Source of the DNA: a virus
Taxonomy: Duplodnaviria; Heunggongvirae; Uroviricota; Caudoviricetes
Direction: 5' to 3' (one strand)
Virus record (IMG/VR): IMGVR_UViG_2565956631_000008
DNA: 17,914 nt
Each line of letters begins with the position of its first letter. Position 1 is the first letter of the stretch. A program made the translations under genes and the position numbers. The notes beneath the pieces were generated by a model. That model saw nothing but the letters and a program-made list of their open reading frames with translations, was not told the DNA's origin and made no database searches. This document shows, piece after piece, positions 8,601 to 13,407 of the stretch.

Positions 8601-8803
8601 AACCTCACTCCCAGCGGACGACGGCGACGGCGGGTTGTCCCCAGTACCAACTCAGCATCATTGATCGCACGGTTAAGCTCATCCAGAGAGGCCGCCGTAT
8701 ATTCAATTCTTCGTCCATCTTTCTGGACAGACACCACCCGTTTACCGGTTAATAAATCAAGGCGCGCCTGACGCAGCGCCTGCAGTTCAGCGACTGTAAC
8801 CAT
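8597..8803 (-). CDS. W: Head-tail joining protein gpW
   Basis: 68 aa, MVTVAELQALRQARLDLLTGKRVVSVQKDGRRIEYTAASLDELNRAI...; same length as lambda gpW and clearly similar. Confidence 0.93.
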   Translation of the reverse strand: MVTVAELQALRQARLDLLTGKRVVSVQKDGRRIEYTAASLDELNRAINDAELVLGTTRRRRRPLGVRL

Positions 8804-10715
8804 TCACTCCTCCGGACAGCTTCGCTGCCAGTTCTTTAAGGGTTGGCCGGGTCGTCTCTTCTTCCCGGGATTTTGCCAGTACAGCCAGATCAAGCTGCCA
8901 GCGTTGCACGGACACACGTAATGCCGCGTAGGCATACACCAGGCAGTCCAGCGCTTCGTTACGCCGCTTTTTGTTATCCCACAGCAGACGCATCTTTCCT
9001 TTTTCCCACTTCTCCACAAGCTCTTCCGCGACCAGTTGCTGCGCCTCTGTCTGCGAAAAAATCTCCGGATCATCAGGAAAACGGATGGCATACGACGTGG
9101 CTTCATCCGCAGGCGTGGGCTCGGCTTTCATACGGGCATAGAGAATTTCTTTTGCGGTGTCCGTCCCCACTTCACACAGATAAACGCCCCGCTGATTGCG
9201 GGTTTTCGGCATGGTGATCACCGGCTTGCCATAGACAGACGCGCCTTTTACCGGCAGCACACGGAAAACACCGTGTTTTTTTGACCTCTGGTAGACGATT
9301 TCACCATCGATCCCCCCGGTGTCCCAGCAGACACGGGAAATGGTCATTTCGGTGCCATCCGCATGGCGGTATTTTTTGTTGATCGCCGCATCCACACGTA
9401 ACAGCGTCTCTTCCTCATCAGGACGCCCCATAATGATGATTTTATCCACCAGAAAAGCTTCCTCTCCCGGTGCCCATCCCCAGACATACATCTCAAAACG
9501 GTTTCGCTGCGAGTCAATGCCCGCCGTCAGATAAACCACCCGGGCAGGCACCGCCGCCGTGTAACGCACAACCTTATCCATCAGCACCTGGTGATCGAGT
9601 TTTTCGCCCACGGCCTCTTCCCAGGTCTCGCCCAGCGTGGTGTTCACAAAGGTTTTCAGGCCGTTGGGATCTTTCAGTGCATCCAGCCAGTCATAGACTA
9701 TCTGTACCCAGGTGGTGAACGGACTGTACGCTGTCCAGATATGGAACGTGATGGAGCGCGGCGGCGGAATTTCATTATCCGCGGCGCTGAAAAACGTCAG
9801 ACCGTCACGGGTCCACATCCCCGTGTTTTCACAGATCCACCGCCCGTTGCTCTGGTCAAGCTCAGACTGATGGATCACGCAGCCATGATGTTCACAGAGG
9901 TAGAAAACGCTTTCGGGGCTGTCCTTCTCCCATTTAAGGCCAAAAGGCGTGGATTCATCGCCAAATTTCAGATACTGCTCCTCCCCACAGTGTGGGCAGG
10001 GCACATAAAAACGCATGAAATGCGCCGACTCGTTGGCCGCTTTTTCGATCTGGCAGGTGCCTTTGATTTTAGGCGTCGAGCCGCGAATGGATTTGGGCCA
10101 TACAGAGCCCTCAATACGTTTATCCCCAAGCAGGGTTGGCGAACCCTCTTTTTCGACATCCGGTTCGAACGAGGAAAGTTCGTCATAGCAGACCACGTCC
10201 ACGGATTTTTCACGGTAGTTTTTGGCGGCAGCGCCGCCCAGGCACCAGAAACCCACACCCGATGAAAAGCGTTTCAGCGTGAGGGTATTGTCACGATGTT
10301 TACGCCCCAGCCATGGAAAAAGGTCTTTCAGACATGGCACATCCCGAATCGTCGCCTCCACGTGAGACTTCATAAAATCTTCAGCGGCAGAATCCGTGGG
10401 CTGAAAAAGCAGACTGTTTCGGGATTTATGCTCAATAAAATACCCGACCACCCCCAGCAACATCTTTGTATAGCCAACACGGGCAGATTTAATCAGATTA
10501 ACAGTCCGGATCTGATCATTCCCCATGCTGTTCATGATGGCGATCTGGAACGGCAGCGTTTTCCATTCTCCCTCACCATATGAAGATTCTTTAGGCAGAT
10601 AATAATTTTGATCAGCCCATTCAACTGGCGTCACCGGCAATGCCCTTATCAGGGGCTGTAATGCTGTTGTGACAGCACTCATCATATTATTCAGTTGTTG
10701 CTCTGATATATTCAT
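8787..10715 (-). CDS. A: Terminase large subunit gpA
   Basis: Start taken at MNISEQQLNNMM... (ATG 10713-10715); the ORF-track start at 10772 adds 19 codons with no lambda counterpart. Protein matches lambda gpA throughout (WADQNYYLPKESSYGEGEWKTLPFQ..., GSTPKIKGTCQIE..., CPHCGEEQYLKFGD...). Confidence 0.95.
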   Translation of the reverse strand: MNISEQQLNNMMSAVTTALQPLIRALPVTPVEWADQNYYLPKESSYGEGEWKTLPFQIAIMNSMGNDQIRTVNLIKSARVGYTKMLLGVVGYFIEHKSRNSLLFQPTDSAAEDFMKSHVEATIRDVPCLKDLFPWLGRKHRDNTLTLKRFSSGVGFWCLGGAAAKNYREKSVDVVCYDELSSFEPDVEKEGSPTLLGDKRIEGSVWPKSIRGSTPKIKGTCQIEKAANESAHFMRFYVPCPHCGEEQYLKFGDESTPFGLKWEKDSPESVFYLCEHHGCVIHQSELDQSNGRWICENTGMWTRDGLTFFSAADNEIPPPRSITFHIWTAYSPFTTWVQIVYDWLDALKDPNGLKTFVNTTLGETWEEAVGEKLDHQVLMDKVVRYTAAVPARVVYLTAGIDSQRNRFEMYVWGWAPGEEAFLVDKIIIMGRPDEEETLLRVDAAINKKYRHADGTEMTISRVCWDTGGIDGEIVYQRSKKHGVFRVLPVKGASVYGKPVITMPKTRNQRGVYLCEVGTDTAKEILYARMKAEPTPADEATSYAIRFPDDPEIFSQTEAQQLVAEELVEKWEKGKMRLLWDNKKRRNEALDCLVYAYAALRVSVQRWQLDLAVLAKSREEETTRPTLKELAAKLSGGVNGYSR

Positions 10716-11196
10716 CGAGTAAATCCGGTAATTTATCCCCCGCCCGCGCACACTGATTTGCCCCCTTCGCAATAAGGGTTTTCAGATGGTCAAGATGGCG
10801 CGGTGTTAAATCAGGAAACTGTCGCTGCATGGATAAAGGGATGGAATCAAGCGTACTGGATAACGCCATTGCCAGCTTGCTGAGGGCAAAAATACAGAAC
10901 CCGGTATCAATAAGTTTTCCTTTTGACACCTCATTTTTTAACTGCTGTGTAACAGCCTGTTCTGCTGTCAGTTCCCATCTGGCAATAAGCAATTTCTCCT
11001 CATAGTCGTCTTCGCTATCGCCATCAGGCACATCGTTTTTACTTCTTCTCAGATACGATATGTAAAAATCGCGCCAGGCATCCAGATCCAGTTGCCCTCG
11101 CTTATTCGATATCGGGGCACCCGGCAATTTCTGCAATCTGCGAAGCTGGCGATCGGTCAGACTTAAATGCCTGGCAACTTCAGTCTGCGTAGCCAC
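10687..11196 (-). CDS. nu1: Terminase small subunit gpNu1-like, GTG start
   Basis: 169 aa; C-terminal half (FCIFALSKLAMALSSTLDSIPLSMQRQFPDLTPRHLDHLK...LLDEYI) matches lambda Nu1, while the N-terminal HTH region (TQTEVARHLSLTDRQLRRL) is divergent. Overlaps A by 29 nt, lies immediately downstream of cos, and has a GAGG Shine-Dalgarno upstream. Confidence 0.9.
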   Translation of the reverse strand: MATQTEVARHLSLTDRQLRRLQKLPGAPISNKRGQLDLDAWRDFYISYLRRSKNDVPDGDSEDDYEEKLLIARWELTAEQAVTQQLKNEVSKGKLIDTGFCIFALSKLAMALSSTLDSIPLSMQRQFPDLTPRHLDHLKTLIAKGANQCARAGDKLPDLLDEYIRATTE

Positions 11197-11239
11197 TCCT
11201 CACCTCGCAAAAACTCTCACTTCACAATCACAACAAAAC

Positions 11240-11345
11240 CGGTCATGTCCGGCTTACATGTCTATTTTTTGTGCATGTCCGGTTCACAGAAGACCTCTTT
11301 TTTTATTTTTCATATAGTTAACTTGAAGAGAAACCGGACATGGTT
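11240..11345 (-). promoter_or_regulatory. cosB-like terminase binding region with three 9-bp CATGTCCGG / CCGGACATG repeats and an AT-rich spacer
   Basis: CATGTCCGG at 11244-11252 and 11274-11282, and its inverse CCGGACATG at 11334-11342, lie between cosN and the Nu1 start. The T/A-rich tract 11290-11330 could be an IHF-type bend site. Confidence 0.55.
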
Positions 11346-11379
11346 CCCGGAAAATTTTCATAAATAGCGAAAACCCGCG

Positions 11380-11391
11380 AGGTCGCCGCCC
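11380..11391 (-). other. cos: cosN, the 12-nt cohesive end GGGCGGCGACCT (read on the minus strand)
   Basis: Minus strand reads ...cgatccaacaggttacg GGGCGGCGACCT cgcgggttttcgctatttatgaaaattttccgg..., matching the lambda right-end/left-end junction as recalled; the match extends about 35 nt into the lambda left end. Confidence 0.9.
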
Positions 11392-11539
11392 CGTAACCTG
11401 TTGGATCGACGGAAAGGACCCGAAAACGAGAATAATTATCACTTACAGCAAGAATCGAATCTGATCTATTATGGTGCTTGCTATTATGTGCCGGCACAAG
11501 TGCGTCGTTTACCGTCATTTCACACAGAGGCATCATCAA

Positions 11540-11791
11540 ATGAAAATCAGAAATATTCTCGCTATCTCCCTTGCAACATCATCCTTCAGTTGCCTGGCAT
11601 TTAAATCCTCGCCCAATGTGCTACCAGGACCAACGAATCAACTAACTGCGGTAGAAAGTAAAATTATCGGACATTTTTATGCCCCACACAGTGCATTACC
11701 CGGAACAACCATCACAGGGACATGTGACGCCTCCCCCGTCCCGGGATGCACCTGTCCGTTTTGTACTATGCTGCGTAGCCAAAACCGATAA
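11540..11791 (+). CDS. Small secreted cysteine-rich protein (Sec signal peptide), function unknown
   Basis: Internal ATG at 11540 of the 11471..11791 ORF, with GAGG about 9 nt upstream. N-terminus MKIRNILAISLATSSFSCLA has a signal-peptide n/h/c layout; the predicted mature ~63 aa carries 4 Cys (TGTCDASPVPGCTCPFC). Opposite strand to the late operon. Confidence 0.5.
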   Translation: MKIRNILAISLATSSFSCLAFKSSPNVLPGPTNQLTAVESKIIGHFYAPHSALPGTTITGTCDASPVPGCTCPFCTMLRSQNR

Positions 11792-11852
11792 CATCCGCAT
11801 TTACCTGGTATTACATGATGAGTTCACGCAGCGACTGATAGAGGAAGGAAAG

Positions 11853-12032
11853 ATGGTTAGTAAAAGCAAGGCGCATTGCCGCCGCATGCTGCAGGCATTG
11901 CAACAGACGAGAGCAGGTATTTTTGACCAGTTGGAAAACTGCCAGCATACTTTGCCCGAGTATATCGCCATCTCATCGGAAACCAGTGCAACTCTTATTC
12001 ATCGGGTTCCACCAGAGAAAAAGAAGAAATGA
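11853..12032 (+). CDS. Small hypothetical protein (59 aa) with strong RBS
   Basis: ATG at 11853 preceded by GAGGAAGGAAAG; MVSKSKAHCRRMLQALQQTRAGIFDQLENCQHTLPEYIAISSETSATLIHRVPPEKKKK. The longer ORF-track frame (from 11679) overlaps the upstream gene and lacks an RBS. Confidence 0.45.
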   Translation: MVSKSKAHCRRMLQALQQTRAGIFDQLENCQHTLPEYIAISSETSATLIHRVPPEKKKK

Positions 12033-12037
12033 ACAGT

Positions 12038-12062
12038 GAGGCGTTGTGTGGCATACAACGCC
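12038..12062. terminator. Perfect 9-bp hairpin between convergent genes; probable bidirectional terminator
   Basis: AGGCGTTGT-gtggcat-ACAACGCCT starts 6 nt after the stop of the plus-strand 59-aa ORF and is followed by TCTTCC; on the minus strand it is followed by a CATTTCTTCTTTTTCTC tract. Confidence 0.5.
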
Positions 12063-12154
12063 TTCTTCCATCATTCCTCGTCAGCCATGACAAAAATATA
12101 ACCGCTGGCTCTTTCATTTTTCTCCTGCGTCCAGCCCCTCTCTACCTGGAAGCA

Positions 12155-12481
12155 TCAAGGACGTGACGGCGTAAAGATAAATTGTCTCTTCACTCCCTGA
12201 CAGGGGCGATTCTTTTCAAATCGCCATTTCGCCATGGCCTTCACCACTTCATCACGAAACAAATTATGAGGCTCTGAGCGGAGAAAAACGATCCGTGTCA
12301 CAGTCCCATCAGCACCAATATCGAACTTAACCTCAACCAGCCCCTTGATATAATTTGCTGCAGCATATTCCGGATATCGTGGATACACCGTCACTAATTG
12401 CCGGGGCTCATCAGCTTTTTGCTGCGAGCATCCCACTGCCAGGACAGATAACAGAAAAAGTAGTAAAAGGCGTCTTTTCAT
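12155..12481 (-). CDS. Lipoprotein with TonB C-terminal-domain-like fold
   Basis: Start at MKRRLLLLFLLSVLAVGCSQ (ATG 12479-12481, AGGA 7 nt upstream): signal peptide plus lipobox-like AVGC. Remainder ...VYPRYPEYAAANYIKGLVEVKFDIGADGTVTRIVFLRSEPHNLFRDEVVKAMAKWRFE aligns with the E. coli TonB C-terminal domain (YP..A.A..I.G.V.VKFD...DG.V...S.P...F..EV..AM..WR.EP). Confidence 0.7.
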   Translation of the reverse strand: MKRRLLLLFLLSVLAVGCSQQKADEPRQLVTVYPRYPEYAAANYIKGLVEVKFDIGADGTVTRIVFLRSEPHNLFRDEVVKAMAKWRFEKNRPCQGVKRQFIFTPSRP

Positions 12482-12791
12482 TTTTATTCCTACGGGTCTT
12501 ATTCTGACAATATATCCTGTGTTCCAGACTGCCACATCACCACATCCTGTGCCATTATCTGACTCACATTACATACATCGCATCGGGATACAGTAGTAGC
12601 ACTTTCTGTAATACAGCTTCCTGTTTCTTCCACCATCGCACCGGGATAAACCCGCGAATCATTAACGCGGTAAAAACCCGGTGTGCATCGTTTTTAATTA
12701 TCCCCGCACACTCGCGCAGAGGAGTCTCCCTGTCGGGCTGCGGTCTCTGTTAATGAGGGAATATAGCGACGATACGGCGCATCAACAAAAC

Positions 12792-13265
12792 TTATTTCAG
12801 GCACTGAGTGCGGATATAGTCCTGTGCCCCTTCCAGTTGCTTGTGCATCGTCATCAGCCGCTCTCTGAGGGTGAAATAATCCCGTGTAACGGTGTCTGCC
12901 AGTTGGGGGCCGGTTGCATTATCCACGCCGGAGGTGGTGGGGGCTTCACGCACGGAGCCTGGACAGGTGGCGTTGATCCGCAGGCGCTTACGACCAGCGG
13001 CAACGTCAGCGCGAAGAGTTTCATTTTCAGCTCTCGCATCGGCTAATTCCCTCGAGTATTTTGCATCGAGCGCAGCAACATCGCGCTGGCGCACCTGCAT
13101 ATCAGTAATGGTTGCGTTCGCCAGCTTCAGTTCACTGGCTTTGTTATCGCGCTGCGCTTTGTAGGTAATCGCGTTATCACGGTAATGGTCTGTTGCCATC
13201 CACAGCGCACCACAGGCCACCAGCAGAATAACGATAAACGCGGAAAGCATTCGGTTTATGTTCAC
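12792..13265 (-). CDS. Rz: Spanin inner-membrane subunit Rz (i-spanin)
   Basis: ...[55 protein letters not shown]...[18 protein letters not shown]...; near-identical to lambda Rz. The ORF-track start is GTG (13263-13265) overlapping the stop of the upstream small ORF as GTGA; an alternative ATG lies at 13248-13250. Confidence 0.93.
12854..13039 (-). CDS. Rz1: Spanin outer-membrane lipoprotein subunit Rz1 (o-spanin), embedded in Rz in the +1 frame
   Basis: [59 protein letters not shown]; lipobox plus proline-rich core, near-identical to lambda Rz1 and wholly inside Rz in a different frame. Confidence 0.9.
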
Positions 13266-13393
13266 CCCAGCAACCCCGACGAAGACAACATCATCCAGGC
13301 CATGGAAAGAAAAAGAGCAACCAGCATTAGTGAAAATGAAATGCCGACAATTACACAGAGGATCTTCGCCAGCGTTATGAGTTTGTCTGACAT
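13262..13393 (-). CDS. Small single-pass membrane protein (43 aa), function unknown
   Basis: Internal ATG at 13391-13393 preceded by GGGAGG 8 nt upstream; [43 protein letters not shown] has one hydrophobic helix. Its TGA stop overlaps the Rz GTG start. Confidence 0.5.
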
Positions 13394-13407
13394 GCTTAAT
13401 CCTCCCT

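What the first reader, a model, noticed from the sequence alone, without database searches (positions are those of the whole stretch)
12155..12481. Phage-encoded lipoprotein carrying a TonB C-terminal domain, in the position lambda uses for bor
The protein has a lipoprotein signal peptide, followed directly by a region that aligns with the periplasmic C-terminal domain of TonB, including its conserved YP, VKFD, DG and WR positions. It has no proline-rich spacer or N-terminal TM anchor, so it cannot be a functional TonB. It sits between Rz/Rz1 and cos, where lambda carries the lysogenic-conversion gene bor. A free TonB C-terminal domain tethered in the periplasm could bind TonB boxes of outer-membrane transporters and act as a dominant-negative decoy, blocking TonB-dependent phages and colicins. 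That would be functionally analogous to the receptor-blocking lipoproteins Llp (T5) and Cor (phi80/HK022), but by a different mechanism. I do not recognise this as a described exclusion system.
Basis: partly seen in the sequence, partly recalled or inferred. Interest (0 to 1): 0.72.

Follow-up and report, generated by a model that had tools for sequence, protein, structure and literature searches.

The report
Prophage lipoprotein made of TonB's C-terminal domain
A small prophage gene found in about 30% of complete E. coli genomes encodes just the receptor-docking end of the host energy protein TonB, anchored by a lipid; it is expressed in lysogens, and its function is untested but may be to interfere with TonB-dependent import.

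Summary
Window 12155-12481 (-) encodes a 108-aa protein with a rule-conforming lipobox (LAVG|C18, Ser at +2). The rest is a complete TonB C-terminal domain: Pfam TonB_C E=7e-13, about 40% identity to E. coli TonB 151-230, AF2 pLDDT 87, TM 0.90-0.92 and rmsd 0.9-1.5 Å to TonB CTD crystal structures.

The gene is real and under selection (dN/dS 0.12 between two alleles). It is not new as a sequence. It is 100% identical to phage 21 CPT_21_73 ("TonB C-terminal domain protein") and to LF82 prophage Perceval's "TonB fragment", and it occurs in 1617 of 5426 complete E. coli genomes. Published RNA-seq (PMC9928086) shows it transcribed in the lysogen while the flanking late genes are silent, so it is a moron.

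It does not replace bor: about half of 80 viral contigs carry both genes.

I found no functional study. A TonB-box decoy is the best-supported mechanism, because over-produced periplasmic TonB domain inhibits transport in the laboratory. It is unproven, and a strong global block is unlikely because UTI89 and ATCC 25922 carry the gene.

I rate it a known gene with a plausible, testable, undescribed mechanism.

The parts
12155..12481 (-). CDS for a 108-aa pre-lipoprotein consisting of a TonB C-terminal domain only
   Evidence: ORF and sequence; Pfam TonB_C E=7e-13; 100% identical to phage 21 CPT_21_73 and Perceval PERCE_65; dN/dS 0.12 against the 72%-identity allele.
12428..12481 (-). Lipoprotein signal peptide plus lipidated Cys18 (MKRRLLLLFLLSVLAVG|C). 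Ser at +2 implies sorting to the outer membrane by Lol.
   Evidence: Lipobox rule check is true for this protein and for 5 of 5 close relatives; none has Asp at +2. Outer-membrane sorting is inferred from the E. coli +2 rule (established knowledge).
12170..12406 (-). TonB C-terminal domain, residues 26-104, equivalent to E. coli TonB 153-231. It includes the YP motif and the complete beta3 strand (residues 94-103).
   Evidence: HMMER alignment to 1u07/2gsk/2grx chains; AF2 secondary structure E28-30, H38-42, E47-55, E61-70, H76-83, E94-103; Foldseek TM 0.90-0.92.
12488..12491 (-). Ribosome-binding site AGGA, 6 nt before the ATG
   Evidence: Read from the sequence; annotated at the same place in phage 21.
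12482..12781 (-). 300-nt upstream region inherited together with the gene. It should hold the lysogen promoter if the window copy behaves like Perceval's.
   Evidence: Window 12781->11392 is 98.6% identical to Perceval from 300 nt upstream of the gene to the end of the record. Perceval's gene is transcribed in the lysogen. No consensus sigma-70 site was found on this strand. In a PWM scan the best site shared with Perceval is a -10 TATATT at 12514-12509 (score 6.8), which is below the shuffle median of 7.9.
12673..12781 (-). About 110-nt non-coding element conserved across lambdoid phages; it is not specific to this gene
   Evidence: 432 phage records match, including lambda, where it lies 116-222 nt upstream of bor. 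It is better conserved than the CDS between the window and JLK-2012, with indels that are not multiples of 3. No Rfam match.
12792..13265 (-). Context: Rz i-spanin, with the Rz1 o-spanin embedded at 12854-13039
   Evidence: PF03245 E=2e-47 and PF06085 E=4e-20.
10687..11196 (-). Context: Nu1-type small terminase. The cos end is near 11392, and gpA is at 8787-10772.
   Evidence: PF07471, PF05876 and PF20454; end of homology to the Perceval record.

Best explanation
The gene is a lysogen-expressed prophage cargo gene (a moron). [quoted passage not shown] This free domain most likely pairs its exposed beta3 edge strand with TonB-box segments of outer-membrane transporters, or with the TonB boxes of incoming group-B colicins. 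It would compete with the host's scarce TonB and so dampen TonB-dependent entry of phages, colicins, microcins and siderophore-borne compounds, probably only partially or selectively.

Shown: the gene, lipobox, fold, purifying selection, distribution and transcription in lysogens.

Inferred: outer-membrane localisation, TonB-box binding, and the resulting protective phenotype.
For: 1. The TonB CTD is intact. It covers TonB 151-230 at about 40% identity, with beta3 complete and F180/F202/W213/Y215/F230 all kept as aromatic residues. The AF2 model superposes on the transporter-bound TonB CTDs 2gsk_B and 2grx_C at 0.9-1.0 Å.
2. The best NCBIfam matches are the enterobacterial TonB equivalog models, aligned only to their C-terminal 85 positions. 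The domain therefore resembles the host's own TonB.
3. The lipobox is conserved and no relative has Asp at +2.
4. dN/dS is 0.12 between alleles. The gene is in 1617 of 5426 E. coli genomes. Homologues at 31-46% identity sit in the same lysis-to-terminase slot in Rahnella and Klebsiella phages.
5. The gene is transcribed autonomously in LF82 lysogens: raw counts 22-269 against 0-10 for Rz in ten samples.
6. The TonB box binds by beta-augmentation of TonB beta3 (PMC11658791). Over-produced periplasmic TonB domain inhibits TBDT iron import (Howard 2001 as cited in PMC9841981).
7. Phage lipoproteins Llp and Cor already act on the periplasmic face of FhuA, so the strategy exists in phages.
Against: - There is no experiment on this protein.
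- Transcript level in the lysogen is modest (about 50 fpkm), whereas transporters outnumber TonB (PMC9841981). Saturating all TonB boxes therefore looks hard.
- Carriers include UTI89 and ATCC 25922. From my own knowledge, UPEC virulence depends on TonB-dependent siderophore uptake, and ATCC 25922 is a cefiderocol-susceptible QC strain. A strong global block is therefore unlikely.
- The TonB residues R158, Q160 and R166, which from my own knowledge are implicated in TonB-box and cork contacts, are T31, Y33 and Y39 here.
- I could not test whether an 8-residue tether allows docking under a transporter.
- The carrier phages show no sign of using a TonB-dependent receptor themselves. The phage 21 J C-terminus is 47% identical to lambda J, and no cor gene is annotated.
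- PADLOC gives no hit.
Confidence: 0.4

Rival explanations
1. The domain targets the host Ton machinery itself rather than TonB boxes. It would heterodimerise with the TonB CTD, or bind another TonB-CTD partner at the outer membrane, and so trap the few hundred TonB molecules per cell.
For: TonB CTD fragments crystallise as dimers (1u07 and 1ihr are among the hits). Low decoy expression would suffice against a low-abundance target. The expected phenotype is the same as for the decoy.
Against: The protein ends at the equivalent of TonB T235 with a Pro-rich tail (TPSRP). It therefore lacks the C-terminal segment that, from my own knowledge, is exchanged in the 1u07 dimer. The model is closest to the monomeric, transporter-bound conformations. 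There is no direct evidence.
Confidence: 0.1
2. It is an envelope protein whose TonB_C fold is used for something other than TonB-box competition. Possibilities are binding peptidoglycan or an outer-membrane protein, or modulating one specific transporter, as part of the set of envelope-remodelling morons (Bor/Iss, NmpC, Lom, SitABCD) carried by the same prophages.
For: It travels with bor/iss, nmpC/ompC and sitABCD in phage 21, Perceval and UTI89. TonB_C-only secreted proteins also occur in non-phage chromosomal contexts: Erwinia, and a cellulose-synthase locus. Positions equivalent to TonB R158, Q160 and R166 are changed. Carriers retain TonB-dependent uptake (own knowledge).
Against: No alternative ligand is indicated by any search. 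The domain is closest to genuine enterobacterial TonB and keeps the beta3 edge strand.
Confidence: 0.25
3. It is a lysis-cassette component, a spanin-like outer-membrane lipoprotein, as the PHROG label suggests.
For: PHROG 1267, labelled 'Rz-like spanin' in the lysis category, matches full length at E=5e-43. The gene lies directly downstream of Rz/Rz1 on the late strand in E. coli, Klebsiella and Rahnella phages.
Against: The window already has a canonical Rz/Rz1 pair. The protein is a folded TonB_C domain, not a short proline-rich o-spanin. It is transcribed in lysogens while endolysin and Rz are silent. bor, on the opposite strand, often separates it from Rz. The PHROG label is most simply a name given because of the gene's position.
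Confidence: 0.03
4. It is a non-functional relic, a captured 3' piece of tonB, as in the database names 'partial tonB-like' and 'TonB fragment'.
For: Database names. Some copies are truncated (P0035 and others).
Against: dN/dS is 0.12 with dS 1.5. The lipobox and RBS are conserved. Two diverged alleles and cross-genus homologues all keep the full domain. The gene has its own transcription.
Confidence: 0.05

Closest known systems
E. coli TonB C-terminal domain (residues about 150-239; PDB 1u07, 1xx3, 2gsk, 2grx)
   Same: Same fold and about 40% identity over 80 residues. YP, VKFD, DG and WR motifs, the five conserved aromatic positions and the beta3 edge strand are all retained.
   Different: No N-terminal TM helix and no Pro-rich rod, so it cannot couple to ExbBD. 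It is anchored to the outer membrane by a lipid rather than to the inner membrane. It lacks the last about 4 residues. R158, Q160 and R166 are replaced.
Engineered periplasmic TonB fragments (Howard, Herrmann, Stratilo & Braun 2001, J Bacteriol 183:5885)
   Same: A TonB periplasmic domain delivered to the periplasm without its anchor. This is reported to inhibit TBDT-mediated iron import (as cited in PMC9841981).
   Different: Those are artificial, soluble and over-expressed. This protein is natural, lipid-anchored, prophage-encoded and expressed at a low level. I could not read the original paper in the library.
T5 Llp and the Cor proteins of phi80, N15, HK022 and mEp167
   Same: Small phage outer-membrane lipoproteins that act from the periplasmic side on a TonB-dependent transporter to exclude phages.
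   Different: Unrelated fold and sequence: only TonB_C is hit in Pfam, and no Llp/Cor family is hit. Llp and Cor are specific to FhuA and work allosterically. A TonB CTD would recognise the TonB-box motif shared by many transporters. This gene is located next to the lysis genes, not the tail genes.
Lambda Bor / Iss
   Same: A small outer-membrane lipoprotein moron in the Rz-to-cos cargo region, expressed in lysogens.
   Different: No homology. It is on the opposite strand and often co-occurs with bor. In LF82, bor is strongly regulated by growth condition whereas this gene is roughly constitutive.

Membership tests
TonB_C domain (Pfam PF03544 / TIGR01352) | Score above the curated gathering threshold | tested here: met
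   PF03544 scores 49.2 bits against 24.6. TIGR01352 scores 47.4 bits against 27.1.
TonB_C domain (Pfam PF03544 / TIGR01352) | Alpha/beta fold of the TonB CTD with a three-stranded sheet and an exposed beta3 | tested here: met
   AF2 pLDDT is 96-98 over the domain. Foldseek gives TMt 0.90-0.92 and rmsd 0.9-1.5 Å to 1u07, 2gsk and 2grx.
Functional TonB energy transducer (NCBIfam PRK10819 equivalogs) | Full-length architecture: N-terminal TM anchor, Pro-rich spacer and CTD, scoring above the equivalog cut-off | tested here: not met
   Scores are 45-69 bits against cut-offs of 265-448. Only profile positions of about 150-240 are matched. The protein is 108 aa with a cleavable lipoprotein signal.
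Bacterial lipoprotein (PROSITE PS51257-type lipobox) | K/R in the first 7 residues, a hydrophobic stretch, [LIVMFWSTAG]2-[LIVMFYSTAGCQ]-[AGS]-C with Cys at position 15-35 | tested here: met
   LAVG-C18 fits the rule for the window protein and all close relatives.
Bacterial lipoprotein (PROSITE PS51257-type lipobox) | Actual lipidation and outer-membrane localisation | not testable with these tools
   Inferred from Ser/Thr/Ala at +2, that is no Asp. Needs globomycin or palmitate labelling and membrane fractionation.
TonB-box-binding decoy / dominant-negative TonB fragment | Binds TonB boxes and inhibits TonB-dependent uptake | not testable with these tools
   Only indirect evidence: beta3 retained and a laboratory precedent.
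Llp/Cor superinfection-exclusion lipoproteins | Llp/Cor fold or sequence family | tested here: not met
   Pfam and PHROG return TonB_C and phrog_1267/34172 only. All structural top hits are TonB CTDs.
Bor/Iss | Homology to lambda Bor | tested here: not met
   No Bor family hit. bor is a separate neighbouring gene in phage 21, Perceval and UTI89.
o-spanin (Rz1-like), as implied by the PHROG 1267 label | Small proline-rich outer-membrane lipoprotein paired with an i-spanin and expressed only with the lysis cassette | tested here: not met
   A canonical Rz1 (PF06085) is already embedded in Rz. This protein is a globular TonB_C domain and is transcribed in lysogens when Rz is silent.
Prophage moron | Transcribed from the repressed prophage independently of the late genes and not needed for the lytic cycle | tested here: met
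   Published RNA-seq for the identical gene in LF82 Perceval shows 8-fold above background (Table 1), with flanking late genes at the floor. The window shares 98.6% identity from -300 nt onward. Dispensability was not tested.

The most novel reading that the evidence does not exclude
This would be a natural, prophage-encoded, outer-membrane-tethered copy of the TonB docking domain, acting as a broad-spectrum periplasmic decoy. By capturing TonB boxes of transporters or of incoming colicins, it would give lysogens tolerance to TonB-dependent phages, group-B colicins, microcins and possibly siderophore-antibiotic conjugates. In phage 21-type prophages (phage 21, Perceval, UTI89) it is carried together with the TonB-independent SitABCD iron/manganese importer, which could offset the cost in iron uptake.
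Probability: 0.3. Interest if true: 0.8.

Novelty: new variant of a known kind. Interest (0 to 1): 0.58.

Why it matters
The gene sits in roughly 30% of complete E. coli genomes, including UPEC UTI89, AIEC LF82, the QC strain ATCC 25922 and O157:H7 prophages. It also sits in the classical phage 21, yet I found no functional study.

If it dampens TonB-dependent import, it would be a new and simple mechanism of lysogenic conversion: host-domain mimicry at the outer membrane. It could affect susceptibility to TonB-dependent phages, colicin and microcin warfare in the gut, iron acquisition, and possibly uptake of siderophore-conjugated antibiotics.

The hypothesis is cheap to test with one plasmid and standard phage, colicin and albomycin assays. 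Showing no effect would also be useful, because it would mean the TonB_C fold has a second, unknown use in the envelope.

Tried and rejected
1. The first AF2 run used a 6-sequence alignment and gave pLDDT 61. It was too weak to rely on, although TonB CTDs were still the top hits. A 35-sequence alignment replaced it.
2. The search for related loci with the divergent alignment A3 failed because it had no conserved stretch.
3. Foldseek against BFVD viral structures gave no significant hit. The fold is not represented there.
4. PADLOC gave no hit. Rfam gave no hit in 11000-13400.
5. Promoter hunting was inconclusive. The consensus scan found nothing on the gene's strand. In my PWM scan the best site (TTGTTG-17-TATATT, 12788-12760) lies at the window-specific Rz junction and is below the 95% shuffle maximum. 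Sites shared with Perceval are weak.
6. I first read the DSMTV motif at the N-terminus of the Serratia colicin as a TonB box supporting the decoy idea. I then found that residues 11-107 are homologous to colicin A's TolB/TolA-binding region. That colicin is therefore probably Tol-dependent, and I withdrew the support.
7. I looked for a TonB-dependent receptor preference in the carrier phage. The phage 21 J C-terminus resembles lambda J (47%) and Stx-phage J proteins, and no cor gene is annotated. The result is uninformative.
8. The original Howard 2001 paper could not be retrieved. It is cited second-hand.
9. Ten literature searches found no functional study of this protein.

Full report
**Observation**

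The minus-strand ORF 12481->12155 encodes 108 aa: MKRRLLLLFLLSVLAVGCSQQKADEPRQLVTVYPRYPEYAAANYIKGLVEVKFDIGADGTVTRIVFLRSEPHNLFRDEVVKAMAKWRFEKNRPCQGVKRQFIFTPSRP. An AGGA ribosome-binding site lies 6 nt upstream of the ATG. The longer GTG-initiated reading (126 aa) has no such site, and phage 21 is annotated with the ATG start.

The N-terminus meets the PROSITE-style lipobox rule: K/R in the first 7 residues and LAVG-C18. Ser at +2 predicts Lol sorting to the outer membrane under the E. coli rule.

**Domain and fold**

- Pfam reports only TonB_C, at 49.2 bits against a cut-off of 24.6, covering residues 33-99.
- NCBIfam's best matches are the enterobacterial TonB equivalog models. They match only at profile positions of about 150-240 and score far below their cut-offs, and TIGR01352 passes its cut-off.
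- phmmer against PDB sequences gives E=1e-14 to E. coli TonB CTD chains, aligning residues 24-103 with TonB 151-230.
- In that alignment YP, VKFD, DG and WR are identical to TonB. TonB F180, F202, W213, Y215 and F230 are all aromatic here, and the whole beta3 strand is present.
- R158, Q160 and R166 are replaced by T31, Y33 and Y39.
- AF2 with a shallow alignment was weak (pLDDT 61). With 35 sequences it gave pLDDT 87, and 96-98 over the domain.
- Foldseek against the PDB then placed TonB CTDs in the first 16 ranks: 1u07_A TMt 0.90 and rmsd 1.5 Å, 2gsk_B 0.92 and 1.0, 2grx_C 0.92 and 0.9.

**Is it a real gene?**

- Two allele groups exist, at >=95% and about 73% nucleotide identity. Between them dN/dS is 0.12 with dS about 1.5.
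- The lipobox is conserved in both groups. The extra Cys94 of this allele is Arg in the other relatives aligned (the JLK-2012 copy of allele 2 keeps Cys).
- The gene is present in 1617 of 5426 complete E. coli genomes, including UTI89, ATCC 25922 and O157:H7 strains.
- It is also in 15 deposited phage genomes and in at least 173 stretches of IMG/VR.

**Is it already known?**

As a sequence, yes. It is 100% identical to CPT_21_73 of the classical phage 21, annotated 'TonB C-terminal domain protein'. It is also identical to PERCE_65 ('TonB fragment') of LF82 prophage Perceval. RefSeq calls it 'TonB family protein'.

PHROG 1267 is essentially this family (full-length match, E=5e-43) but is labelled 'Rz-like spanin'. 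I regard that label as a name given because of the gene's position. The window already has canonical Rz and Rz1, and this protein is a globular TonB_C domain.

**Context**

In 80 IMG/VR loci the order is always lysis genes, then bor on the opposite strand in at least 45 loci, then this gene co-directional with the late genes, then terminase. That holds for both Nu1/gpA and HNH/TerS-type terminases.

Homologues at 31-46% identity occupy the same slot in a Rahnella prophage and a Klebsiella phage. Phage 21, Perceval and the UTI89 icd prophage carry bor/iss and this gene together. The gene therefore does not take bor's place. It is a separate cargo gene in the same region.

**Expression**

The consensus scan found no sigma-70 site or terminator on the gene's strand between Rz and the gene. 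My PWM scan found nothing above shuffled controls.

Published RNA-seq settles whether it is transcribed. Misson et al. (PMC9928086) list Perceval LF82_160 'TonB fragment' among genes transcribed 8-fold above local prophage background in LF82 lysogens. Their supplementary table gives raw counts of 22-269 in ten samples, against 0-10 for Rz and 0-34 for the small terminase. There is no significant change between the conditions compared (log2FC 0.26).

Window 12781->11392 is 98.6% identical to Perceval, starting 300 nt upstream of the gene. The window copy probably carries the same promoter, although it was not located.

**Mechanism**

The TonB CTD binds transporters by pairing beta3 with the TonB box (PMC11658791). 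Over-production of the periplasmic TonB domain inhibits TBDT iron import (Howard 2001, as cited in PMC9841981). Phage lipoproteins Llp and Cor already target the periplasmic face of FhuA.

An outer-membrane-tethered, energy-less TonB CTD expressed in lysogens is therefore most simply a competitor for TonB boxes. I give this 0.4 for four reasons:
- No experiment exists on this protein.
- Expression is modest while transporters outnumber TonB.
- Three contact-region residues differ from TonB.
- Carriers such as UTI89 and ATCC 25922 clearly retain TonB-dependent uptake (own knowledge). Any effect must therefore be partial or selective, for example interception of incoming colicin TonB boxes.

The rivals are: trapping of TonB itself (0.1); another envelope role for the fold (0.25); a lysis role (0.03); a relic (0.05).

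**Side observations**

- Phage 21-type prophages combine this gene with sitABCD, a TonB-independent Fe/Mn importer that is also expressed as a moron.
- In Serratia, a secreted TonB_C-only protein forms an apparent operon with a colicin-E1-type immunity gene, convergent with a pore-forming colicin, in two different genomic backgrounds. That colicin's N-terminus is homologous to colicin A's Tol-binding region. I therefore do not count this association as support for the TonB-decoy idea.
- An element of about 110 nt just upstream (12673-12781) is conserved in 432 phage records, including lambda, where it lies upstream of bor.

**Verdict**

The gene is already annotated and known to be expressed in lysogens, and its function is unstudied.

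Noticed in passing
L007 6001-8510; L015 5001-7447 (Serratia): A secreted TonB_C-only protein (119 aa, SPI-type signal peptide, no lipobox) lies 67 bp upstream of a colicin-E1-type immunity gene on the same strand. Both are convergent with a pore-forming colicin. The triad occurs at a chromosomal site and in a plasmid-like context, and the same chromosomal site can carry the TonB_C gene without the colicin. The colicin N-terminus is homologous to colicin A's TolB/TolA-binding region, but DSMTV sits where colicin A has its TolB box.
   Followed up: partly
window 12155-12481: PHROG 1267, which is essentially this TonB_C lipoprotein family (full-length match, E=5e-43), is labelled 'Rz-like spanin' in the lysis category. 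This looks like a name given because of the gene's position, and it will propagate through PHROG-based annotation pipelines.
   Followed up: yes
window 12673-12781 (minus strand): A non-coding element of about 110 nt is conserved at 80-94% in 432 phage records (lambda, Stx phages, mEp460, Salmonella S107). It is far more widespread than the TonB_C gene. In lambda it lies 116-222 nt upstream of bor. In the window, bor and its proximal upstream 180 nt are absent, but the element remains abutting the Rz stop codon. No Rfam match.
   Followed up: partly
L019 8968-11001 (phage 21); L021 3248-6697 (UTI89): Phage 21, LF82 Perceval and the UTI89 icd prophage carry sitABCD (a TonB-independent Fe/Mn ABC importer) in the b region, together with bor/iss and the TonB_C lipoprotein. 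In LF82 the sit genes and the TonB_C gene are all transcribed in the lysogen. I did not test whether the pairing is functional or only a shared backbone.
   Followed up: partly
window 12327-12354 (+ strand): The best promoter-like match in the region (TTAACC-16-TATAAT, 10 of 12, with TG) lies inside the gene on the antisense strand. The number of such sites in the region equals the number expected from shuffles.
   Followed up: no
window 12200-12202 (codon 94): This allele has a second, unpaired Cys (C94) in the loop before beta3. The other relatives aligned have Arg there, though the JLK-2012 copy keeps Cys. A free periplasmic Cys could form disulfide-linked dimers.
   Followed up: no
L013 2940-5300: In one Serratia contig the gene next to the TonB_C-only gene encodes a SIR2_2-domain protein (786 aa) instead of the colicin and immunity pair. 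This suggests a variable island at that site.
   Followed up: no
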